Of a DNA stretch of 64,000 nucleotides, positions 1,105-62,552 are shown one piece after another. The DNA is taken from positions 1-64,000 of the IMG/VR virus record IMGVR_UViG_3300036981_000255. One strand, written 5' to 3'. This DNA comes from a virus. The notes below the pieces were generated by a model. The model was not told the origin of the DNA. It saw nothing but the letters and a program-made list of their open reading frames with translations, and did not search any database. Each line of letters starts with the position of its first letter. The first letter of the stretch is position 1. A program made the position numbers and the translations under genes.

Positions 1105-1225
1105 TTACAAACTAGATTCATGTTGAGCCATTTGACGTTCAAAGTCATTTCTTTCGACAATCGTATCAAAATAGTCTAACGGAAATCCTTCGACATTACT
1201 AATGCAATAGGATGTGTAAACGTAG
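1105..1225 (-). pseudogene. 3' half of a 73-aa gene split by TnpB element 1
   Basis: Minus strand reads (D)YVYTSYCISNVEGFPLDYFDTIVERNDFERQMAQHESSL*; joins in frame to 2662-2762 when the element is removed; hairpin at about 1064-1097 follows the stop. Confidence 0.8.
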
Positions 1226-1256
1226 TCTTACTAACGTCAATCATTAATAATACAAT

Positions 1257-1282
1257 AACATTGAAAATCACATAAGAGTTCC
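1257..1282 (-). promoter_or_regulatory. GGAACT-N17-GTT ECF-like promoter motif, facing out of element 1
   Basis: Same motif and spacing at 5121-5146, 12672-12697, 57188-57213 and 61578-61603. Confidence 0.65.
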
Positions 1283-1305
1283 ATATAAAAAACTTTAATC
1301 TCGAC

Positions 1306-1313
1306 TATTTATA
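1306..1313 (+). promoter_or_regulatory. TATTTATA putative late promoter upstream of tnpB1
   Basis: Same octamer lies on the sense strand upstream of many virion genes. Confidence 0.6.
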
Positions 1314-1342
1314 GTTACATTACAATAAAACGAAAATCACAA

Positions 1343-2593
1343 TTGATAAGAATTTCACGTCATAGTATCAGTAACACGGCAAACCGAAATAAACTCAATA
1401 TTTTGGAACAGATGTGTGTTGACTATAAACACGATGTTCAATTATGTGTAAATAAACTTGTTAGTGGTGAATTACCATTAGCAAATTTACATTTACCAGA
1501 ATTTGTATTTGGTGGTATTTTAAAACATAGTCATTATGTGCGTGATATATATTCTAAAGCCAGTCAAATAGTTCGTGGAGAAATAACTGTTGCTGAAAAT
1601 CGCAGATTTGAATGTTATCAAGAAATCTACAAAGAGTTAATAGAAGCAGACAGACACCCTGCGTTCACAAATAAACGTTATAGTGAACTCAATCTCAAAC
1701 ACATTTTCAAAAGTAGGTTCTTCACAATTCCAGTTATCAAAAACATCACTATTGATTTAGCAAAAGATTTGGTTGACATTCAAGAAGGAAAACACTTTGA
1801 CAATTTTGTTAGATTGAAACTCCCTTATTTTAATGAAAGGGGAACTCTGTCAAAAAAAATCAAAATCCCAGTAAAGAACTATCAACACGCCAACAAGTTT
1901 ATCATAAAAGGATACATACGAAAAACGTCTATTCAAATCAAAAAAGTTGGCGATAAAATGTTTGTCAATTTTCTTTGGCAAAAAGATGAACCAATTGGCA
2001 ACCCTAAATTCAAAATTAAAAATAAGTCTAAACACAAAGTTAAACTCAATCCAGCCAACTATTCCAACCACATCGGCAATTCAATGGGCATCGACTTAGG
2101 CTATAAAAAACTAATTGTAACGTCAAAAGGTCAAGTCTTAGGAACTGACATGATAGACCTTTACAAAGAGATAGCCGATTGTACACGCAACACTAAAAAA
2201 TACAAACGTCTCATAAAAGAACGCAACAACAAAATGAATTATTACGTCAATCAAATTGATTTTGAAGGCATATCAGTTCTCAAAATAGAAGATTTGAAAG
2301 ACGTTAAAAAAGATACTAAAGGAAAATTTTCAAAAAACTTCAATGCAAAACTAGCAAGTTGGGTTTACGGTAAAATAATAAATAAGATTACGATGATATG
2401 TGAGGACAAAGGTATTTTGTTGGAGAAGGTTTCTCCTGCCTATACATCACAAACATGTTCATCTTGTAAGTCGGTACATAAAGAAAGTCGCAAAGGCGAA
2501 AAGTATGAGTGTATTGATTGTGGATTAAAGATTGATGCAGATTATAACGCAGCAATCAATATCAGCAATAGAGGGAGCTTGCAGTCCCCTTAA
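1343..2593 (+). CDS. tnpB: TnpB / Cas12f-like RNA-guided endonuclease (copy 1)
   Basis: RuvC-I GIDLG, RuvC-II IEDL, YTSQTCSSC...CIDC zinc ribbon, RuvC-III DADYNAAINI; catalytic D-E-D intact; TTG start. Confidence 0.93.
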   Translation: MIRISRHSISNTANRNKLNILEQMCVDYKHDVQLCVNKLVSGELPLANLHLPEFVFGGILKHSHYVRDIYSKASQIVRGEITVAENRRFECYQEIYKELIEADRHPAFTNKRYSELNLKHIFKSRFFTIPVIKNITIDLAKDLVDIQEGKHFDNFVRLKLPYFNERGTLSKKIKIPVKNYQHANKFIIKGYIRKTSIQIKKVGDKMFVNFLWQKDEPIGNPKFKIKNKSKHKVKLNPANYSNHIGNSMGIDLGYKKLIVTSKGQVLGTDMIDLYKEIADCTRNTKKYKRLIKERNNKMNYYVNQIDFEGISVLKIEDLKDVKKDTKGKFSKNFNAKLASWVYGKIINKITMICEDKGILLEKVSPAYTSQTCSSCKSVHKESRKGEKYECIDCGLKIDADYNAAINISNRGSLQSP

Positions 2594-2683
2594 CTTTATA
2601 AACTGATTTTGTGTGAGGACATTATACCATTTGGTTGATGTTTTTATATGGGATTGGTAACTCCGCATGGTCTTCGTCACAAA
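2571..2683 (+). ncRNA. Putative omegaRNA of tnpB1 (scaffold to 2663, guide from 2664 CGCATGGTCTTCGTCACAAA)
   Basis: Conserved with 40953-41046; 21-bp stem 2602-2622/2638-2658 with compensatory changes between copies; similarity ends abruptly after GGTAACTC; 5' end uncertain. Confidence 0.75.
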
Positions 2684-2762
2684 CATCACAATTGCATGTG
2701 CCACTGTTGCGATATATTGGTTTACCGATTCTGTCCAAGAACCATTCTTTTGATTTTTGCAT
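2662..2762 (-). pseudogene. 5' half of the gene split by element 1 (CxCxxC motif)
   Basis: MQKSKEWFLDRIGKPIYRNSGTCNCDVCDEDHA; start overlaps the upstream stop (TAATG at 2760-2764); now reads on into the element to a stop at 2622. Confidence 0.8.
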
Positions 2763-4248: not shown

Positions 4249-5079
4249 TTAATTTGTAAAATAATAGCCATTATCTTCAACGTCAATTTGTTTGTTAATT
4301 GGTTGGCATCTGCGAAGCCTGTAAACTTCTGCCATCATTTCTTCTTCTGTGCAAAAATATTTTGTCCAACTATCATTGTCACTTCCAGATAATCTGATAT
4401 AAAATGGACAATGTTTTTCATCAACCTGTTCAGACTTATCTCCTTTCAAAAGATTTTTAATTGTATCTAATGAATTTTTTAAACCTAATGATTTGACGTG
4501 TGCCAATTTTGTCTTTTTATCCATCAAATACAAATTAAAATCAACCTTCACGTCACGTGGAATATGATGATTCCAAAGATTTAAAAAAGAATCCAAAGAT
4601 GTTAATTCTTGACTTCTGTTTTTGCCGAAAGTCAAATGACAACCTTCTTTGTCGTTTTGAACGTAGTTTCCATAAAATGATGTGTCTTCATCGACTTCAA
4701 TAAATTCCCCATTCTTTTCATTTTTTATTTTAACTGCCTTGATAATATCAGCAGAAATCCACTTATTTGCCTTGATTTCCAATTCTTGTAAAAATGTGGA
4801 ATTTGGAAAATGTTTGTCGAAAAATTTGTTGACTATTCCAAAATTGAAACCTTCAGAATATTTGTCAACGTCTGACAAATTGTCAATTGCAATAGTGAAA
4901 GTCGTTTGAAATAGTTTCTTTTTGTTAAGAAAATCTCCATAAAATACAATCACTGGCAATGCCATGTAAAGTTTTGCTTGACTCGTATTGTAATAAAAAT
5001 GAGCCAATTGACCAAATAATTTAACTTCATTGGAAAATCTAAAAAAAACCTTTTGTGGAAATATTGATGGCTCTGACAT
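4249..5079 (-). CDS. Hypothetical protein (likely start MSEPS)
   Basis: Long ORF downstream of the GGAACT-N17-GTT motif. Confidence 0.75.
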   Translation of the reverse strand: MSEPSIFPQKVFFRFSNEVKLFGQLAHFYYNTSQAKLYMALPVIVFYGDFLNKKKLFQTTFTIAIDNLSDVDKYSEGFNFGIVNKFFDKHFPNSTFLQELEIKANKWISADIIKAVKIKNEKNGEFIEVDEDTSFYGNYVQNDKEGCHLTFGKNRSQELTSLDSFLNLWNHHIPRDVKVDFNLYLMDKKTKLAHVKSLGLKNSLDTIKNLLKGDKSEQVDEKHCPFYIRLSGSDNDSWTKYFCTEEEMMAEVYRLRRCQPINKQIDVEDNGYYFTN

Positions 5080-5120
5080 ATTTATGACATTTAAAGTTAT
5101 AAAAAGATTACAAAACAAAC

Positions 5121-5146
5121 AACAGAAGATTTTTAAATTTAGTTCC
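5121..5146 (-). promoter_or_regulatory. GGAACT-N17-GTT promoter motif
   Basis: Intergenic, exact spacing match to four other sites. Confidence 0.65.
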
Positions 5147-5160
5147 TTGTATTATAAAAA

Positions 5161-5415
5161 TCATTTGCTATCTTCAACAACATAAGACTTATAGTCAAAA
5201 TCTTTTGACAAATGACCCCTATCTTTAAAAAATTGAATTTCTGAAAGCCAACAAATTCCACCTCTTTCTTGTCGCCTTTCCATTGTTTGATTGTTCTCGC
5301 CAAATATGGCTACATAAGCAGCCCAAAGGATTTTTGCGCCATCTTCTGATATTGTTGCATATCCGTTGCAACTGCCTTCGTGTTTTGTATCGAGTAGGAT
5401 TGTGTATGTTTTCAT
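5161..5415 (-). CDS. Hypothetical protein
   Basis: 84-aa ORF. Confidence 0.7.
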   Translation of the reverse strand: MKTYTILLDTKHEGSCNGYATISEDGAKILWAAYVAIFGENNQTMERRQERGGICWLSEIQFFKDRGHLSKDFDYKSYVVEDSK

Positions 5416-5663
5416 ATTTTTTTTATAGTTTCAATAAAATCTTGTGCTATTTTAAGACCATAACTATATGGTGTACAAGCAATATCTTCGGCTTGTTCAA
5501 GTGAAAGTCCAACAGATATTTCTCTCATGTTAAAATAAATGTATAAATAAATCCCATGACTTTTTTCCATATCCTTATAGTATTTTACAACTATATCTTC
5601 TGAAACTTGGTTCAAAATGTCTATTGCTTTTAGATAAATGTCTTTTGGTTGTTGCATAATCAT
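5412..5663 (-). CDS. Hypothetical protein
   Basis: 83-aa ORF, ATGA overlap with the next gene. Confidence 0.7.
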   Translation of the reverse strand: MIMQQPKDIYLKAIDILNQVSEDIVVKYYKDMEKSHGIYLYIYFNMREISVGLSLEQAEDIACTPYSYGLKIAQDFIETIKKI

Positions 5664-37771: not shown

Positions 37772-37850
37772 TGGAATTAAAACTCATAAATTCGTTTATG
37801 ACAAACCTCGCAAACAGTTTGTGATAAACTCGTAACCTCGTTATGATAAA
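37772..37850 (-). repeat. Three tandem 22-24 nt palindromic units (TCATAAA-CGAA-TTTATGA type)
   Basis: Inverted copy inside element 2 at 39612-39670. Confidence 0.75.
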
Positions 37851-39425: not shown

Positions 39426-39493
39426 ACAAAAAAAAGACATTCAAAGGATATTCAACCGAAAAATCCGTTGAAATTCTTTGAATGTCTTTTGAC
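39426..39493 (-). terminator. Strong hairpin plus U-run, terminator of the former tail-tube allele
   Basis: AAAAGACATTCAAAG ... CTTTGAATGTCTTTT with 8 U on the minus strand, about 45 nt after the orphan CTT TAT TAA. Confidence 0.75.
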
Positions 39494-39534: not shown

Positions 39535-39543
39535 TTAATAAAG
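39535..39543 (-). pseudogene. Orphan last codons (L-Y-stop) of the former tail-tube allele
   Basis: Joining to 41045 gives ...QYCLR|LY*, the same end as the intact tail tube gene. Confidence 0.8.
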
Positions 39544-39574
39544 TATTGTCATCGTTAATCAGTAACCATACAAT

Positions 39575-39600
39575 ATCGTTGAAAATCATATAAAAGTTCC
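39575..39600 (-). promoter_or_regulatory. GGAACT-N17-GAT variant promoter motif, facing out of element 2
   Basis: Homologous to 1257-1282. Confidence 0.5.
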
Positions 39601-39611
39601 ATAAAAAAAAC

Positions 39612-39670
39612 TTTATCGCAACCGAGTTTACGAAGGTTTATCATAAACGAATTTATGAGGTTTAATTCCA
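39612..39670 (+). repeat. Two palindromic units, a 49-nt insertion relative to element 1
   Basis: ATCGCAACCGAGTTTACGAAGGTTT + ATCATAAACGAATTTATGAGGTTT. Confidence 0.75.
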
Positions 39671-39672
39671 AC

Positions 39673-39680
39673 TATTTATA
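39673..39680 (+). promoter_or_regulatory. TATTTATA putative late promoter upstream of tnpB2
   Basis: Conserved with 1306-1313. Confidence 0.6.
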
Positions 39681-39712
39681 GTTATATTATAACAAAAACA
39701 AAACACTATCAA

Positions 39713-40975
39713 TTGCTAAGAACATCCCGACATAGTATCAGTAACACAGCAAATCAAGGCAAACTCAATGTTTTGGGGCAATTCGTTAATGATTACAAAC
39801 ATGATGTTCAATTGTTTGTTAATAAGATTGTCAAAGGTGAATTTCCGTTACAAACACTATATTCTCCAAAGGGTGTTGAAGGTGCAATCTTAAAACACAG
39901 TAAATACAAACGTGACATTTACACAAAAGCAAGTCAAATAGTTAGAGGAGAAATAGCAGCAGCCGAGGAACGCAGATACCAAGCCTACAAGAAATTGTAC
40001 AAGAAACTTATTAAGCTAAATATTCATACTGCATTCACTAATAAACGATATAGCGAACTGAACCTCAAACACATTTTCAAAACCGATTTTTTCACTATTC
40101 CAGAAATCAAAAATATCACTATTGATTTGGCAAAAGATTTGGCTGACATTCAAGACGGCAAACACTTTGACAATTTTGTAAGAATCAAACTTCCATATTT
40201 CAATGAAAAAGGCACACGAGCCTTACAAATCAAGTTACCAGTCAAAAATTACAAACATTCAAACAATTTTATCACTAAAGGTTACACAAGAAAAACGTCA
40301 ATCCAACTAAAGAAAGTCAATAACAAATTCTTCATAAACTTCTTGTGGGAAAAAAACGAAATCAAAAAATCAAAACTATCTTTCAAACCCAAAGTAAAAG
40401 CCAAATCAAAAACAGACGAACGCCCTAAACAAAGCGACATAATTCTATCCAAAACAGATAACTCAATGGGCATTGACTTAGGCTACAAAAAACTAATTGT
40501 AACGTCTAAAGGTCAAATCTTAGGAACTGATATGATAAACATTTACAAGAAATTGGTGGCTTGTAAAAGTGGAACAGCAAAATATAAACGTTTAAAAAGA
40601 GAACGAGATAACAAAATAAACTTCTATGTCAATCAAATTGACTTTGATGGTGTTGAAGTTTTGAAAATCGAAGACCTCAAAGACGTAAAAAAAGATTCAA
40701 AAGGTAAAAAATCAAAAAAGATAAATTCACTTCTCTCAAAATGGATTTATCCAAAAATTATAAGTAAAATAACGATGACATGTGAGGACAAAGGTATTTT
40801 GTTGGTAAAGGTTTTACCAGCATATACATCACAAACATGTTCATCTTGTGGTGAAATACATAGAAAGAGCCGTAAAGGTGAACTTTACAAATGTGTTTCG
40901 TGTGGTTTTGAATTGGATGCAGACTTAAATGCAGCAATCAATATCAATAACAGAGGGAGCTTGCAGTCCCCTTAA
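39713..40975 (+). CDS. tnpB: TnpB / Cas12f-like RNA-guided endonuclease (copy 2)
   Basis: GIDLG, IEDL, TCSSC..CVSC, DADLNAAINI; full-length homolog of 1343-2593; TTG start. Confidence 0.93.
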   Translation: MLRTSRHSISNTANQGKLNVLGQFVNDYKHDVQLFVNKIVKGEFPLQTLYSPKGVEGAILKHSKYKRDIYTKASQIVRGEIAAAEERRYQAYKKLYKKLIKLNIHTAFTNKRYSELNLKHIFKTDFFTIPEIKNITIDLAKDLADIQDGKHFDNFVRIKLPYFNEKGTRALQIKLPVKNYKHSNNFITKGYTRKTSIQLKKVNNKFFINFLWEKNEIKKSKLSFKPKVKAKSKTDERPKQSDIILSKTDNSMGIDLGYKKLIVTSKGQILGTDMINIYKKLVACKSGTAKYKRLKRERDNKINFYVNQIDFDGVEVLKIEDLKDVKKDSKGKKSKKINSLLSKWIYPKIISKITMTCEDKGILLVKVLPAYTSQTCSSCGEIHRKSRKGELYKCVSCGFELDADLNAAININNRGSLQSP

Positions 40976-41066
40976 CCAAAAAACTGGATTTGTGTGAAAA
41001 TGTGAAATCTTTAGGATTCTATGTTTTTATATGGATTTGGTAACTCTTAGGCAGTATTGCAGTTGG
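40953..41066 (+). ncRNA. Putative omegaRNA of tnpB2 (scaffold to 41046, guide from 41047 TTAGGCAGTATTGCAGTTGG)
   Basis: 21-bp stem 40983-41003/41021-41041; conserved with 2571-2663. Confidence 0.75.
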
Positions 41067-41116
41067 ATTGAAAATGAAATTTCTCTAACTTTAACATCAG
41101 TGTAGTCAAAAGTTCC
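41045..41116 (-). pseudogene. 72-nt remnant of a divergent tail-tube allele
   Basis: GTFDYTDVKVREISFSIQLQYCLR versus GEFSYGDAKVREISFTIQPQRCLR at 41497-41568; 17/24 aa, 49/72 nt, no gaps. Confidence 0.88.
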
Positions 41117-41120
41117 CATC

Positions 41121-41490
41121 TACCTTAAAAAAAGAAGAAGGGCGTTTCATTGTAATTTATACAGAACAAGACTTATCAAGCAAATTATTAAAACAAAATA
41201 TTGTCAAATTGTCTGGAACAGACATAACAAACAAAACACGTCATAAAACAAGTGAGAATCGTTCCAAAGAAACAAGGTTACATCGTTTTTGAAGTGGTCT
41301 ATGAAGTCAAAGAAATTCCAAAAAAGAAAGACAATAAACGTTACCTTTCAATAGACTTAGGCATCAACAATCTATCAACGTTATCAAAGCACAAATCATC
41401 AACGGTAAACCACTAAAATCAATAAACCAAATTTCCAATAAACAAGTATCAAAACTGAAATCAATTATCACAACGATAAATAAAAAACTA
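41121..41490 (+). pseudogene. tnpB: Frameshifted fragment of a different TnpB family
   Basis: Across frames: EGRFIVIYTEQ...KLSGT / IKQVRIVPK..YIVFEVVYE...YLSIDLGINNL / IINGKPLKSINQ..NK. Confidence 0.8.
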
Positions 41491-41979
41491 GTAAAGTCTT
41501 AGGCAACGTTGTGGTTGTATAGTAAATGAAATTTCACGGACTTTTGCATCACCATAACTAAATTCACCAAAATCTAATTCACCTGTTACAATGGCATTTT
41601 CAATCAACCATTTAGATACTGCTACACCAGTTGGGTCTAATAGTTCAAGTTCAAGATTTTTTGCGCATCCTATATTGTATCCCATACGACCTGTGGCAGA
41701 TTCAGCGTGAAGACGTACCCACTCCATCAATGCTTCACCTTGAGAGGGTGCAACAAAATCTCTAACTTTTATTGCCATTTCTTTCCACTCATACGAGCCA
41801 TTCACGTATGTTTTAGTATTTAAAAAAGCAATATCAATTTTTTGCAAGGACATTTTCGGTGAACCGCAAGATATTAATGACCATGTTTGAATACCAACAT
41901 CTGATGGAAAACGTAAAATCCAACGATTTGTTAGCATAATTTCATATTGCAAAGGACTTTTTAATAGTAAATCCGCCAT
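41488..41979 (-). CDS. Tail tube protein (gp19-like)
   Basis: NRWILRFP...WKEMAIKVRD...LMEWVR...LELLDPTGVAVSKW...QPQRC; near the sheath gene. Confidence 0.88.
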   Translation of the reverse strand: MADLLLKSPLQYEIMLTNRWILRFPSDVGIQTWSLISCGSPKMSLQKIDIAFLNTKTYVNGSYEWKEMAIKVRDFVAPSQGEALMEWVRLHAESATGRMGYNIGCAKNLELELLDPTGVAVSKWLIENAIVTGELDFGEFSYGDAKVREISFTIQPQRCLRLY

Positions 41980-43840: not shown

Positions 43841-46800
43841 TTAAATATTTGTAAAATCAACCCCTACTGGTGAAAGCACAAATTCAATGTTGATGTACTC
43901 TAAAGTTCTAATAGGTTGAATCGCAATTTTACAATTCATGGCATTACTATTGAAACTATCGGCTGAACGGTCAATTTGAATTTGATAATCAAAAATACCA
44001 CGTTCATCACGGATGTTCGCCAAAATCGGATTCACAAGATTTTCAAATTGTCTTCTGACTTCTTCATCGTTTTGTTCAAACAATAATGTTAAAGACACAT
44101 CTTCAATTAAACGTCTCATGTACAAGATTAAACGTCTAACGTTGATACGGTCAAGAGCAGATTCTGCAATTTGTAGATTTTTATTACCCCAAATATACAC
44201 TGGGCTAGTTCCGTTTGCTTGTTTGAGTGTGATAAGTGAATTGATACGTCCTTCAAATAAAGCATCACGCTCATCGAATGTCAATTTCTTTCTCGCTTGT
44301 CTAAATTCAGTTTCACCTATTTTTGTACCAGCAGCAGCGCCCCAAGGTTTTCTCAATTTATCATTCAAAGCAAAAATACGCATCGCTTCAGCAGTGGGTG
44401 GCAACCACAAATAAACATTGTTCACTTCATCAAACATTTGACCCCAAGGAAAATACGTTGCTGTATAACTTGAGTCAAACAAACCATCAATTACACCAGC
44501 AGCATCTTTTGCTTTTAAAGTTTGTCCACCTGAATCTTGGTCAAGAGTAGTTGTAACGTAGAATGTATCACAACGCTCGTTTTCAACCATATCAATAGTT
44601 TCTTCGATAAGGTCAGTGTTTTCAGTTGTGTTCAAATTAGGTGTTGCCAACAAGTTCATACGAATTTCATCTCTATTCGCTAGAACTCTGATACCTTCCA
44701 AATATGCGTAAAAGTCAGAATTGATAACAGTTTGACCGTTATTGATATTTTCAGAAGAATATACACCAAAATTTCCACTGACTAAACCTTTTTGTCCAAG
44801 GCTTCCTTTTACAGAATATTGGTCTGTGTTTGTACGTCTTTTTCTATGAATATCCCAACCGTCAAAGCCACCATAAACCATCATTGTGAATTTTCTTGCG
44901 AAAACTTGTTCGTAATCAGTACCAACCATGTCAGATTCGTTTTGGAACGCAAATTCACCTCTGTCAAACTCTACAGCTCCAAAGCCTTCAACTGTTACCC
45001 CTGTGGCATTAACGTCCATGTGGAATCCATGTGTTGAACCTGTCCAAAATGGCAAATCTGGGTCAGATGGAACACCTTTATAAGTGAAAAAGTCAGCGTC
45101 AAAACCTAATGTGTCTGTAAATCCAAGGTAAACTTGACGTATTCTGTCAAAATCTTCGTACTTAGTTTTATAAACAATTTGCGGAGCTAAAGCACACTCG
45201 TAATCACGAACAGGATAGCCTTCAAAACCTGCTGGGAATGATTCATCTTGACATTGAACACCCATTTCAATCATAATGTGCTTACTTTGCAACACATGGT
45301 CTCCATCGACTGTACCAATACGTCTTGCGATATAGTTGGTATCATTGGCTCTCAACGTAACGTTTGTGAAACTTTCCAAAACCACAGGACGTTTATCTGT
45401 ATCACCATAAGAACGAACTTGAACATCAAAAGATTTTTTGTCAGGTCTTATGTTTGTAATAGACACTTTAACATCAGTGTTTGCAGCATCACCATCAGAA
45501 AATGTATGGAAACGGAACAAACGGAACACTCTGTTACCACGAAGCTCGGATACAACCCAAGGTGTCATAGCAGGTTGATATGGCTCTTTGTAATCGTCCA
45601 AATCTTGTGTATAACAAACAGTCGGCTTGATACAATAAATCAAACCATTTTCGTACAAATAATTGAATGTTGTACCAAAAAATTCCTCCAAATATAACTG
45701 TGTTGCAGGTGGGCAACAAGGAATAAATTGTGTAAATACACGTAGAATGAAATTCTTTTTGGTTTTGTCCAATGATACGTTGTATTCAAAAGCAACACCA
45801 TTTCTGTTTGTTCCTTTGATTAAGAAATCGTCCAATGGTTTTATAATGCCACCATCCAATGATTCAATAGTGACAACATTTCCTTCAACCGCAAAATTTA
45901 GAATTTCATCTCCGTCATAAGTTGCAAATGAACGAATCAAAGCAACAATAGTGTTATCGTATTGAGCATAAGGTGTTCCTGACAATTCAATAACAGTTCC
46001 ACTAAACTCGTGTGTCACTAAACCCGATGGAATTTGGGAAACCACTTGTTGTGTTGTGCCAGAAACCACCGAAGTTGTGATGATAGTTGTACCAGTTGTG
46101 ATAGTGAAATTGACACCTTGAATGGTTTCACAGTCATAAACTGCTGCGTTTCCTGCCAAGTCGCAAATTTTATATTCACCGCCACTGAAAACGTCACCGT
46201 TAGGGAAGAAAATCGAACCATTTTCAATCACTATAGAACCGTCAACATTATGTGTAATTGTTCCACCGACTAAAGTTACAATTCCAGATTCTACAATGGT
46301 AAGTTCATTTGTATCAACGTTTTGAACAACCATTGGGTTAGTAACTGTAATAACAAATGTACTATCAGTAGTAACTGTACCACCACTATAAAGCACAAGA
46401 CAATTTTGAACTTCACTTGGGACATCAATTGTAACACCAACAGCAGTTTCACCTGTGATACAAATATAAGTTTCTTCTGATGTCAGCAATTGCATGGTAA
46501 ATCTTGCGCCTGTGAAGGTTGAACAATCGCCCATCAATGTATTCCCCAAAGAAACTGATTGACCAGTCGCCAAATCTGCTCCACCGAAAACAGTAGTTGC
46601 AATTTCACCTGCATCATACAAATCTTGCAAAACGGTGTTGCTGAAAGTTACGTTAGAAACTGCGCCATTTGCATACTTGATAGTAGCAGTGAAAGCAGAA
46701 GTTGAAGTTGTTGTGATAGTTGCAGGGTCAAGTGATGCGCCAAAAGAAATACCCCAAGAATCACCAGCATCATATCCTGTGAATCCTAAAATTCTACTGA

Positions 46801-47074
46801 CGAATAGTTGGTCTGATTCTTTCAAATATTGTTTTGCAATATACGACCCTTCGTAAATCGGTTGTTGACCTTCTGCATATTTACAAGCATCCAAATCTCC
46901 AAAGCATTGTTTGAAAAGGGAATAAGTATTAATTGCGATAGGTGTAAATGCACGTCCTTTGGGAAACTCACCAGCTATACCCAACGATGTTATACCAAAG
47001 TTTTGAGTGGTGAAAGTTAAGTCAGTTTCAGTAAAATTTATAGACGGACTAAGATTTGGTCTTTGAGTTGCCAT
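43841..47074 (-). CDS. Tail sheath protein (gp18-like) with a large insertion
   Basis: SPSINFTETD, GIAGEFPKG, YFPW, WLPPT, PWGAAAG, IWGNKNLQ...ALDRINVRRL, FEQND, QPIRTLEYINIEF. Confidence 0.95.
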   Translation of the reverse strand: MATQRPNLSPSINFTETDLTFTTQNFGITSLGIAGEFPKGRAFTPIAINTYSLFKQCFGDLDACKYAEGQQPIYEGSYIAKQYLKESDQLFVSRILGFTGYDAGDSWGISFGASLDPATITTTSTSAFTATIKYANGAVSNVTFSNTVLQDLYDAGEIATTVFGGADLATGQSVSLGNTLMGDCSTFTGARFTMQLLTSEETYICITGETAVGVTIDVPSEVQNCLVLYSGGTVTTDSTFVITVTNPMVVQNVDTNELTIVESGIVTLVGGTITHNVDGSIVIENGSIFFPNGDVFSGGEYKICDLAGNAAVYDCETIQGVNFTITTGTTIITTSVVSGTTQQVVSQIPSGLVTHEFSGTVIELSGTPYAQYDNTIVALIRSFATYDGDEILNFAVEGNVVTIESLDGGIIKPLDDFLIKGTNRNGVAFEYNVSLDKTKKNFILRVFTQFIPCCPPATQLYLEEFFGTTFNYLYENGLIYCIKPTVCYTQDLDDYKEPYQPAMTPWVVSELRGNRVFRLFRFHTFSDGDAANTDVKVSITNIRPDKKSFDVQVRSYGDTDKRPVVLESFTNVTLRANDTNYIARRIGTVDGDHVLQSKHIMIEMGVQCQDESFPAGFEGYPVRDYECALAPQIVYKTKYEDFDRIRQVYLGFTDTLGFDADFFTYKGVPSDPDLPFWTGSTHGFHMDVNATGVTVEGFGAVEFDRGEFAFQNESDMVGTDYEQVFARKFTMMVYGGFDGWDIHRKRRTNTDQYSVKGSLGQKGLVSGNFGVYSSENINNGQTVINSDFYAYLEGIRVLANRDEIRMNLLATPNLNTTENTDLIEETIDMVENERCDTFYVTTTLDQDSGGQTLKAKDAAGVIDGLFDSSYTATYFPWGQMFDEVNNVYLWLPPTAEAMRIFALNDKLRKPWGAAAGTKIGETEFRQARKKLTFDERDALFEGRINSLITLKQANGTSPVYIWGNKNLQIAESALDRINVRRLILYMRRLIEDVSLTLLFEQNDEEVRRQFENLVNPILANIRDERGIFDYQIQIDRSADSFNSNAMNCKIAIQPIRTLEYINIEFVLSPVGVDFTNI

Positions 47075-62030: not shown

Positions 62031-62552
62031 TTATTTAATTGGAATAAAATAGTCTTTTTGAAACGGGATTTCAGTTGAATTTTGAATAGTTGGAATAACA
62101 ACCACATTACTTGGTGAAATTGTAATGAAAGGTTCTAGTATTTCGTCTGCGCCATAATTGAAAAGACCAAAATTTATCTTTTTTATTTTGCTACTTTCAA
62201 CCAAAAACTTTTGAACCACCACGCCAGTTGGGTCACATAAATCAATTTCAATAACAAACGATTGGTCACCATATTGTTGAACAAATTTATCTAAAATTGT
62301 GATTGTTGGTGGAGCAATAAATGCTCTAAAGTGAATTGTAATATCAGCCCAGTTATTATCGTTATATTCAATTGGTGATAATTTAGAAACCGACCATGGA
62401 GGTAAATCAACATCTGCTGGAAATCTCACAATAAATCTATTGGCTTGCATTGGTTCGTAAAGATGAAATAAACCTGCGCTGTGCTTTTCCTTATAACTTT
62501 TACTAAAAAAACCTTTGATTTTCTGGAATATCTTTTGTACCATTGTTTGCAT
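62031..62552 (-). CDS. Second tail-tube-like (gp19 paralog) protein
   Basis: EPMQANRFIVRFPADV...WADITI...DLCDPTGVVVQKF...FGLFNYG aligns by eye with 41488-41979. Confidence 0.75.
   Translation of the reverse strand: MQTMVQKIFQKIKGFFSKSYKEKHSAGLFHLYEPMQANRFIVRFPADVDLPPWSVSKLSPIEYNDNNWADITIHFRAFIAPPTITILDKFVQQYGDQSFVIEIDLCDPTGVVVQKFLVESSKIKKINFGLFNYGADEILEPFITISPSNVVVIPTIQNSTEIPFQKDYFIPIK

What the first reader, a model, noticed from the sequence alone, without database searches (positions are those of the whole stretch)
39535..41568. TnpB element whose guide comes from an essential tail-tube allele, next to a replacement allele that appears to escape it
Seen: removing element 2 joins 39535-39543 to 41045-41116 and restores ...REISFSIQLQYCLR|LY* followed by a terminator, i.e. 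the 3' end of a tail tube gene. Only 72 nt of that allele remain. The intact tube gene 450 nt away is a different allele (17/24 aa, 49/72 nt, no gaps, five synonymous codon differences), which looks like divergence under selection rather than decay. It keeps the candidate TAM AGTC (41495-41498) and matches the guide for 7 nt, then mismatches at positions 8-10, 14-15 and 20. The RuvC D-E-D triad is intact. Known: TnpB takes its guide from the right flank and needs a TAM plus extended pairing to cut; T4-like free-standing homing endonucleases cut the neighbouring gene of related phages while the resident allele is immune. Inference: an RNA-guided equivalent, cutting the QxQYCLRLY-type tube allele of co-infecting relatives and sparing self.
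Basis: partly seen in the sequence, partly recalled or inferred. Interest (0 to 1): 0.92.

Follow-up and report, generated by a model that had tools for sequence, protein, structure and literature searches.

The report
TnpB element in displaced tail-tube end
A transposase-less RNA-guided nuclease element (TnpB) sits in a leftover 81-base copy of the end of a jumbo phage's tail-tube gene, so its guide reads that leftover; whether it cuts rival phages carrying that gene end is possible but not shown.

Summary
Removing 39544-41044 joins 41045-41116 to 39535-39543 and restores a tube-gene end (...QLQYCLR|LY*) plus terminator. That end is 49/72 nt and 17/24 aa identical to the intact tube gene (41488-41979, minus strand). 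TnpB2 has its D-E-D triad and zinc finger, and a structured 3' RNA that covaries with element 1.

New here:
- The element belongs to a phage-enriched TnpB clade. Relatives carry an adjacent serine recombinase, as in IS607; this contig has none.
- 41117-41487 is an eroded middle piece of a third, unrelated TnpB. It lies exactly between the leftover end and the working gene.
- That layout (gene with one end, nuclease, displaced other end) matches the scar left by mobile endonuclease ORFs in fungal mitochondria. It recurs in this genome and in at least two unrelated phages of the clade.

A guide taken from the tube end is therefore an automatic by-product of where the element sits. The working gene is predicted uncleavable, because pairing stops after 7-9 nt.

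No guide-matching uninterrupted allele turned up in IMG/VR or the JGI metagenome scan, but the closest relatives' DNA could not be fetched. Rival-cutting is plausible and unproven. The scan noted similar layouts before on other DNA.

The parts
39432..39490 (-). Terminator-like long hairpin downstream of the displaced tube end
   Evidence: Self-inverted blastn match, 83% over 60 nt. A T run follows on the minus strand. The simple terminator scan did not list it.
39535..39543 (-). Last two codons (L, Y) and stop of the displaced tube-gene end, cut off by element 2
   Evidence: joining it to 41045-41116 restores ...CLRLY*.
39544..41044 (+). Element 2: TnpB-only, IS607-like insertion element (boundaries +0 to +2 nt), antisense to the phage genes
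   Evidence: 73% nt identical to element 1 from end to end. Removing either element restores an ORF. The right-end motif GTAACT(N)T is shared across the clade.
39612..39670 (+). 59-nt insert in the left end of element 2, absent from element 1, with an inverted copy at 37772-37828
   Evidence: blastn 86% over 59 nt.
39713..40975 (+). tnpB2, 420 aa, TTG start, RuvC D255/E320/D404, CxxC..CxxC
   Evidence: Pfam PF07282 2.9e-20. NCBIfam guided_TnpB 1.4e-25, below the curated cut-off. Invariant catalytic columns. PDB Cas12f/TnpB hits. dN/dS 0.16 against tnpB1.
40772..41044 (+). Predicted omegaRNA scaffold overlapping the 3' end of tnpB2
   Evidence: Consensus fold with element 1: 74 pairs, 7 with compensatory changes. 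MFE z-score -3.3. No Rfam family matched.
41045..41064 (+). Predicted guide (start uncertain within 41045-41048)
   Evidence: Position directly after the right end. No other site in the 98.6 kb contig lies within 4 mismatches of the 18-mer.
41045..41116 (-). Displaced 72-nt tube-gene 3' fragment (24 codons), with Leu at the conserved QPQ proline
41117..41487 (+). Eroded internal fragment of a third, unrelated TnpB (two frameshifts, stops, both ends missing)
   Evidence: Three-frame translation. Pfam OrfB_IS605 2e-5 and NCBIfam guided_TnpB 2.4e-4. 60% identical to residues 218-263 of 494-aa phage TnpBs.
41488..41979 (-). Intact tail tube gene (163 aa, T4 gp19-like)
   Evidence: PHROG 4542 tail tube, 1.5e-13. 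2408 homologues, some carrying PF06841. The sheath gene lies upstream at 43841-47074.
41495..41518 (+). Resident look-alike of the target: same TAAAG/AGTC context, 7-9 nt of pairing, then three consecutive mismatches
1226..2661 (+). Element 1, sister of element 2 (tnpB1 1343-2593), splitting a 73-aa minus-strand ORF

Best explanation
Element 2 (39544-41044) is a transposase-less TnpB/omegaRNA element of a phage-enriched, IS607-type clade.

Where it sits. It lies antisense, 6 nt before the stop codon, in an 81-nt displaced copy of the tail-tube gene's 3' end. That displaced end, the eroded TnpB3 piece (41117-41487) and the working tube gene form a known pattern: gene with one end, nuclease, displaced other end plus terminator. 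This is the scar left when a nuclease cassette enters a gene by break repair or recombination and brings its own version of the gene's end.

What follows for the guide. The tube sequence in the guide is a by-product, because a TnpB guide is whatever lies just right of the right end.

What the nuclease probably does. TnpB2 with its omegaRNA is probably active. Its one predicted cleavable target is the element-free form of the displaced end: TAAAG/AGTC followed by TCTTAGGCAGTATTGC. So it can re-install itself after loss. It could also cut and convert any co-infecting relative that still uses that end.

The working gene. It is spared simply because pairing breaks after 7-9 nt. A genome where that was not so would not survive.

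Shown: anatomy, intact motifs, RNA fold and covariation, mismatch pattern, recurrence of the layout. Inferred: RNA expression, cleavage, and the order of events.
For: - Boundaries and restored ORFs for both elements.
- Intact triad and zinc finger, invariant in 30 relatives.
- Purifying selection: dN/dS 0.16 between tnpB1 and tnpB2. Intact orthologues exist in other metagenomes: 90% to TnpB2 and 83% to TnpB1.
- Structured, covarying 3' RNA.
- Clade membership: 397 IMG/VR relatives against a best cellular hit of 39%. A serine recombinase lies directly upstream of tnpB in 2 of 5 related phage records.
- The TnpB3 remnant lies exactly between the two tube ends.
- The same layout elsewhere: an orphan right-end RNA next to an alternative 5' end of the glycosyltransferase gene at about 74.3-74.5 kb of the same contig. 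Also L114/115 and L178, and weakly L184. In total about 3 of 65 distinct phages among 73 usable loci, against 0 of 73 mismatched controls.
- The mitochondrial mORF precedent has duplicated ends 64-81% identical (PMC3630166).
- Element 1's guide comes from a gene with no second copy.
- Dra2 TnpB needs a 12-16 bp heteroduplex; mismatches beyond about position 8 permit binding only (PMC12803034).
Against: - The order of events cannot be read from one genome. Element 2 may have entered an intact tube gene first.
- The native-versus-inserted test is inconclusive. The displaced end is no clearly closer to relatives than the resident end (19 vs 18 of 26 against P0002).
- TnpB3 is too eroded to show that it ever had a right end next to the tube gene.
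- Weak flank repeats are about as common on a control flank, so enrichment rests on the few strong cases.
- A transposase-less TnpB kept intact in a lytic phage calls for an ongoing function. The by-product reading does not supply one unless homing between phages is real.
Confidence: 0.55

Rival explanations
1. This is an RNA-guided counterpart of intronless homing and marker exclusion, or in gene-drive terms a natural cleave-and-rescue pair. TnpB2 cuts the QxQYCLRL(Y/F)-type tube end of co-infecting relatives. The linked resident end is a resistant rescue copy, and the whole cassette is copied into, or outcompetes, the cut genome.
For: - The nuclease is intact and under purifying selection, with no transposase in the contig.
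- The resident end keeps the TAM context but has three consecutive mismatches from position 8-10.
- The closest relative's tube protein ends QPQYCLRLF, so that allele type exists.
- The old-versus-new divergence looks like two functional lineages, dN/dS 0.17.
- A second guide-beside-divergent-copy locus exists in the same genome.
- TnpB-driven spread between co-resident plasmids, and 'non-restorative homing' into co-infecting phages, are already discussed (PMC13565253).
- A close relative appears to lack element 2. The tube protein (97%) and downstream-gene protein (86%) clusters both list a longest contig of 22,586 nt, and no TnpB2-like protein in the listed top 120 hits has that contig length. 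This is indirect.
Against: - No guide-matching uninterrupted allele in IMG/VR or in the JGI scan.
- Leu replaces the near-invariant Pro inside guide positions 16-18, as expected for a drifting relic.
- Only 72 nt of homology lie right of the element, which is poor for conversion.
- Self-immunity is a survivorship condition, not evidence of design.
- The second locus has lost its nuclease.
Confidence: 0.22
2. Cripple-and-rescue history without present function. Element 2 transposed into the only tube gene of an ancestor and changed LY* to VTKSI*. The genome survived by picking up an intact gene or gene end from a relative through illegitimate recombination. The old fragment and its guide are now a stranded relic.
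For: - The insertion would replace the invariant C-terminal aromatic residue.
- Abrupt, non-homologous junctions at 41116/41117 and 41487/41488.
- No matching allele found.
Against: - It needs a defective intermediate to persist.
- It does not explain why an unrelated TnpB fragment sits precisely between the two ends.
- It does not explain why the same layout recurs at other loci and in other phages.
Confidence: 0.15
3. Assembly artefact: the metagenome assembler stitched two strain variants together and so created the duplicated tube end.
For: The record is a single metagenomic contig estimated 36% complete.
Against: - The two ends are only 68% identical, far too divergent for an assembler to treat as one repeat.
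- 371 nt of unrelated eroded TnpB separate them.
- An identical TnpB2 is found in an independent Logan assembly.
- The same layout occurs in unrelated contigs.
Confidence: 0.03

Closest known systems
TnpB/omegaRNA of IS607-family elements (OMEGA systems): restorative homing and proposed non-restorative homing
   Same: - Split RuvC with D-E-D, a zinc-finger TNB domain, and a structured RNA overlapping the gene's 3' end.
- The guide is taken from the right flank.
- No TIR or TSD; scarless ORF restoration.
- Relatives of the clade carry an adjacent serine recombinase.
   Different: - No transposase in this contig.
- Ends and flank are not G-rich: AG|TC and ...GTAACTC, instead of GG ends with AGGAG/GAGGG TAMs (PMC13565253).
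- The protein scores below NCBIfam's TnpB cut-off.
- The clade is found mostly in large phages, often several copies per genome.
- The guide reads a displaced gene end.
Mobile endonuclease ORFs (mORFs) creating gene hybrids in fungal mitochondria (Allomyces atp6; Glomus atp6, atp9, cox2, nad3; PMC3630166)
   Same: - Layout: gene core, inserted foreign C-terminal end, endonuclease gene, displaced native C-terminal end.
- The duplicated ends are 64-81% identical there and 68% here.
- The gene stays functional.
   Different: - The nuclease between the ends is an eroded RNA-guided TnpB, not a LAGLIDADG or GIY-YIG protein.
- A second, intact TnpB element sits inside the displaced end.
- Which end is native could not be decided.
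- The host is a phage, not an organelle.
Free-standing homing endonucleases of T-even phages (SegF, SegB, Mob): intronless homing and localized marker exclusion. Also the jumbo-phage intron endonuclease used in interference competition (Birkholz 2024), as cited in PMC13565253
   Same: - A nuclease gene lies next to a conserved essential gene.
- Self and target would differ only by substitutions.
- The predicted outcome is conversion or exclusion of a co-infecting relative.
   Different: - Recognition would be by RNA pairing plus a TAM.
- No cleavable allele has been found and no activity shown.
- The target copy in cis is a fragment, not the working gene.
Synthetic cleave-and-rescue (ClvR/TARE) gene drives (own knowledge, not checked in the library)
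   Same: An RNA-guided nuclease aimed at an essential gene, tightly linked to a sequence-diverged copy that is uncleavable.
   Different: The system is natural, in a phage, and unproven. The 'rescue' may simply be the ordinary resident gene end.

Membership tests
TnpB (OMEGA RNA-guided nuclease) | RuvC-I/II/III catalytic D-E-D | tested here: met
   D255 (GIDLG), E320 (KIEDL) and D404 (DADxNA) are invariant in a 30-sequence alignment and align to Cas12f/TnpB structures.
TnpB (OMEGA RNA-guided nuclease) | Zinc-finger TNB domain | tested here: met
   PF07282 2.9e-20, above its cut-off; C376, C379, C394 and C397 present.
TnpB (OMEGA RNA-guided nuclease) | Curated whole-protein family score (NCBIfam guided_TnpB) | tested here: inconclusive
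   90.4 bits against a cut-off of 100. This is a divergent clade.
TnpB (OMEGA RNA-guided nuclease) | Structured omegaRNA at the 3' end, ending at the right end | tested here: met
   74-pair consensus with 7 compensatory pairs from only two sequences. z-score -3.3. No Rfam model matched.
TnpB (OMEGA RNA-guided nuclease) | Guide RNA expressed; TAM-dependent DNA cleavage | not testable with these tools
IS607-family element | Adjacent serine-recombinase tnpA | tested here: not met
   None in the 98.6 kb contig. Present directly upstream of tnpB in 2 of 5 related phage records, so this is a TnpA-less derivative.
IS607-family element | No TIR, no TSD; 2-nt core shared by both junctions | tested here: met
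   Element 1 has TC at both junctions. Element 2 has TA on the left and TC on the right. Removing either restores the ORF exactly.
IS607-family element | GG termini and a G-rich TAM (AGGAG/GAGGG) | tested here: not met
   The left flanks end ...GTAG and ...AAAG; the right end is ...GGTAACTC. Canonical values from PMC13565253.
IS200/IS605 (Y1 transposase) element | Y1 HUH tnpA and subterminal DNA hairpins | tested here: not met
   No PF01797 in the own contig or in 5 related records. No conserved end hairpins; z-scores -0.75 to +1.2.
Intronless homing / marker-exclusion nuclease | The own allele is resistant | tested here: met
   In silico only: 5 mismatches in 18, three of them consecutive from position 8-10. 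Requirement taken from PMC12803034.
Intronless homing / marker-exclusion nuclease | A sensitive allele exists in related phages | tested here: not met
   0 hits in IMG/VR and in the JGI metagenome scan. 21 relatives end differently. Caveat: the contigs of the nearest relatives were not retrievable.
mORF-type gene hybrid | Two diverged copies of the gene end flanking an endonuclease gene | tested here: met
   41497-41568, the TnpB3 remnant 41117-41487, and 41045-41116.
mORF-type gene hybrid | The displaced end is the native one (closer to relatives) | tested here: inconclusive
   19 vs 18 of 26 residues against P0002, with similar small differences for other relatives. The DNA of relatives is unavailable.
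T4 gp19-like tail tube protein | Family profile match and position next to the sheath gene | tested here: met
   PHROG 4542 1.5e-13. Homologues carry PF06841. The sheath gene lies upstream.

The most novel reading that the evidence does not exclude
A natural RNA-guided 'cleave-and-rescue' drive in a jumbo phage. TnpB2 uses a guide kept on a displaced gene end to cut the essential tail-tube gene of co-infecting relatives. The tightly linked, sequence-diverged resident end is immune, so the cassette and its neighbouring genes are preferentially inherited. More broadly, phage TnpB cassettes would spread by homing together with replacement gene ends.
Probability: 0.18. Interest if true: 0.85.

Novelty: new variant of a known kind. 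Interest (0 to 1): 0.6.

Why it matters
TnpB is known to cut the empty site of its own transposon, and spread to co-resident plasmids has been shown. What transposase-less TnpB genes do in lytic phages is open.

This locus is a concrete, testable case with four parts:
- an intact nuclease;
- a defined predicted guide;
- a reconstructable sensitive site;
- a naturally mismatched resident site in the same genome.

There are also signs that nuclease cassettes enter phage genes carrying replacement gene ends. If cutting of relatives were shown, RNA-guided nucleases would join protein homing endonucleases as agents of phage-phage competition and mosaicism. It would also be a natural analogue of engineered rescue drives. 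If not, the locus is a clear example of a mobile-element graveyard downstream of a structural gene.

Tried and rejected
Tools that did not run:
This affects the nearest relatives: P0002, P0122, P0123, P0242/P0244 and the 37,956-nt Logan contig.

Searches that found nothing useful:
- Single-protein and two-sequence scans of IMG/VR for the tube protein and TnpB2 found nothing.
- blastn against INPHARED phages found nothing.
- The degenerate guide pattern in IMG/VR gave 0 hits. TAM plus guide in JGI metagenomes gave 0 hits.
- The second metagenome scan returned only 45%, 41% and 31% TnpB relatives. It did not return the 90% and 83% orthologues, so that collection may also lack the nearest tube relative.
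- The first genome-contig scan found nothing.
- Rfam found no omegaRNA family at either locus.
- The last protein search, on the downstream 197-aa gene, gave only one relative.

Readings rejected:
- IStron. The element is antisense to the tube gene, so splicing cannot rescue the gene.
- TldR-like dead regulator. The triad is intact.
- Recent host-derived IS. The best cellular relative is 39% identical.
- Recent intragenomic copy of element 1. They are 73% nt identical and dS is saturated.

Other negative results:
- DNA hairpins expected for a Y1 transposase are absent.
- Weak flank repeats are equally common on a control flank. Only the protein-level cross-element cases were kept.
Full report
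**Context.** The window is the first 64 kb of a 98.6 kb IMG/VR viral contig estimated 36% complete, which suggests a large myovirus. Almost all genes run on the minus strand. The sheath gene (43841-47074), a 507-aa ORF and the tube gene (41488-41979) lie upstream of the finding. The tube gene matches PHROG 4542 at 1.5e-13 and has 2408 homologues, some carrying PF06841.

**Observation.** The reverse complement of 41045-41116 joined to 39535-39543 reads GTFDYTDVKVREISFSIQLQYCLR|LY*. Against the resident end it is 49/72 nt and 17/24 aa identical, with five synonymous-only codons. The match is significant against the whole contig: blastn 2.9e-5, tblastn 1.7e-6. A long hairpin with a T run follows at 39432-39490. 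dN/dS between the two ends is 0.17 with dS near saturation. The two ends therefore diverged mostly as working genes in different lineages. The fragment is not a decayed copy of the resident end. One sign of drift exists: Leu stands where 116 of 119 homologues have Pro, and the other 3 have Met.

**The element.**
- tnpB2 (39713-40975) carries PF07282, the D255/E320/D404 triad and the CxxC..CxxC finger. All are invariant across 30 relatives and align to solved Cas12f/TnpB structures.
- It is 68% identical to tnpB1 (1343-2593), with dN/dS 0.16.
- Intact orthologues occur in other metagenomes: 90% to TnpB2 and 83% to TnpB1.
- The two elements are collinear from 1226/39544 to 2661/41044.
- Removing element 1 restores a 73-aa minus-strand ORF, which validates the boundaries to within 2 nt.
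- The last ~270 nt fold into a structure shared by both copies, with 7 compensatory pairs and a z-score of -3.3.
- Across the clade the right end finishes GTAACT(N)T. The guide therefore starts between 41045 and 41048.

**Which family.** Neither a Y1 transposase nor a serine recombinase is present in the contig, and the ends lack Y1-type hairpins. The clade is phage-enriched. There are 397 relatives in IMG/VR, often several per large phage, while the best hit in 185,579 cellular species genomes is 39%. In 2 of 5 related phage records a resolvase-type gene sits directly upstream of tnpB. Elements 1 and 2 are therefore TnpA-less derivatives of an IS607-type lineage, with atypical ends that are not G-rich.

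41117-41487 is the eroded middle of a third, unrelated TnpB. It has two frameshifts and stops, and both ends are missing. It matches OrfB_IS605 at 2e-5 and is 60% identical to residues 218-263 of 494-aa phage TnpBs. It abuts the displaced fragment on one side and the stop codon of the working tube gene on the other.

The locus, read along the minus strand, is therefore:
1. the tube gene with one version of its end;
2. nuclease remains;
3. the other version of the end, now split by element 2;
4. the terminator.

This is the layout of mobile endonuclease ORFs in fungal mitochondria. There the cassette brings a foreign C-terminal end and displaces the native one, and the two ends are 64-81% identical (PMC3630166). 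I took this lead from an earlier scan note and checked the paper.

**Recurrence.**
- In the same genome, outside the window (about 74.29-74.48 kb), a structured orphan right-end-like RNA (z -3.4) is followed by an alternative version of the first 11 codons of the neighbouring glycosyltransferase gene.
- Among 73 usable IMG/VR loci of the clade, three phages have the right flank duplicated in diverged form on the other side of the cassette. They are L114/115 (an SNF2 helicase end, 76% over 182 nt), L178 (a gene start plus promoter, 83% over 151 nt, abutting both ends) and, weakly, L184.
- None of 73 mismatched control pairs gave such a hit.
- Weak nucleotide repeats were as common on a control flank, so I claim recurrence, not enrichment.

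**Mechanism.** By the rule of the family, the guide is whatever lies right of the right end (PMC13565253). The tube content of the guide is thus automatic. Element 1's guide likewise comes from the small gene it split, which has no second copy.

The only predicted cleavable site is the element-free junction. The resident end shares TAAAG/AGTC and 7-9 nt, then has three consecutive mismatches. It is the closest off-target in the contig, at 5 mismatches of 18. Published work on Dra2 TnpB indicates that a 12-16 bp heteroduplex is needed, and that mismatches beyond about position 8 allow binding but not cleavage (PMC12803034).

**The homing or exclusion idea.**
- It is conceptually established for plasmids and has been proposed for co-infecting phages (PMC13565253).
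- It would explain why a transposase-less nuclease stays intact.
- The required sensitive allele was not found: 0 hits in IMG/VR and 0 in the JGI scan. The 21 retrievable relatives, about 60% identical, end differently and have no TnpB downstream.
- The metagenome collection also failed to return the known TnpB orthologues, so the negative result is weak.
- Indirectly, a 97% tube relative and its 86% downstream neighbour both list a longest contig of 22,586 nt. No TnpB2-like protein in the listed top 120 hits has that contig length. This hints that element 2 is polymorphic.

**Verdict.** I read the locus as a new variant of known kinds, combining TnpB homing logic with an mORF-like gene-end scar.

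Noticed in passing
window 1105-2762: Element 1 (1226-2661) splits a 73-aa minus-strand ORF exactly in frame. There is no second copy of that ORF anywhere in the 98.6 kb contig.
   Followed up: yes
same contig, outside the window: about 74289-74482 (L032:1790-1983): A structured orphan right-end-like RNA with no tnpB. It is followed by a 34-nt alternative version (about 29/34 nt) of the start of the neighbouring glycosyltransferase gene, whose ATG is at 74186.
   Followed up: partly
window 39612-39670 and 37772-37828: A 59-nt segment is present in the left end of element 2 but not in element 1. It has an 86% inverted copy in an intergenic gap 1.8 kb away. It may be a small mobile or regulatory repeat.
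   Followed up: no
L116 and L121 (IMG/VR records reached as G002, G003): Relatives of the TnpB clade carry a roughly 200-aa resolvase-type gene directly upstream of tnpB. A second copy in the same phage (L117) shares only the tnpB-plus-RNA part, starting 3 nt before the ATG.
   Followed up: partly
L114:2590-2768 vs 5298-5479; L178:3415-3564 vs 5030-5175: Unrelated phages have diverged duplicates of a gene end (an SNF2 helicase with an intein) or of a gene start plus promoter, on either side of a TnpB cassette.
   Followed up: partly
window 62031-62552: A minus-strand ORF whose 62112-62459 stretch matches the tube protein at 30% identity, probably a tube-related baseplate or tube-initiator protein.
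   Followed up: no
window 39713 and 1343: Both tnpB genes start with TTG at the position where relatives have ATG. The two metagenomic orthologues start with L. This conserved weak start suggests low expression.
   Followed up: no
window 41488-41979 vs P0242: Three of the five differences from the 97% tube relative fall in the last 27 residues (binomial p about 0.035). This is a weak hint that the gene end has its own history.
   Followed up: partly
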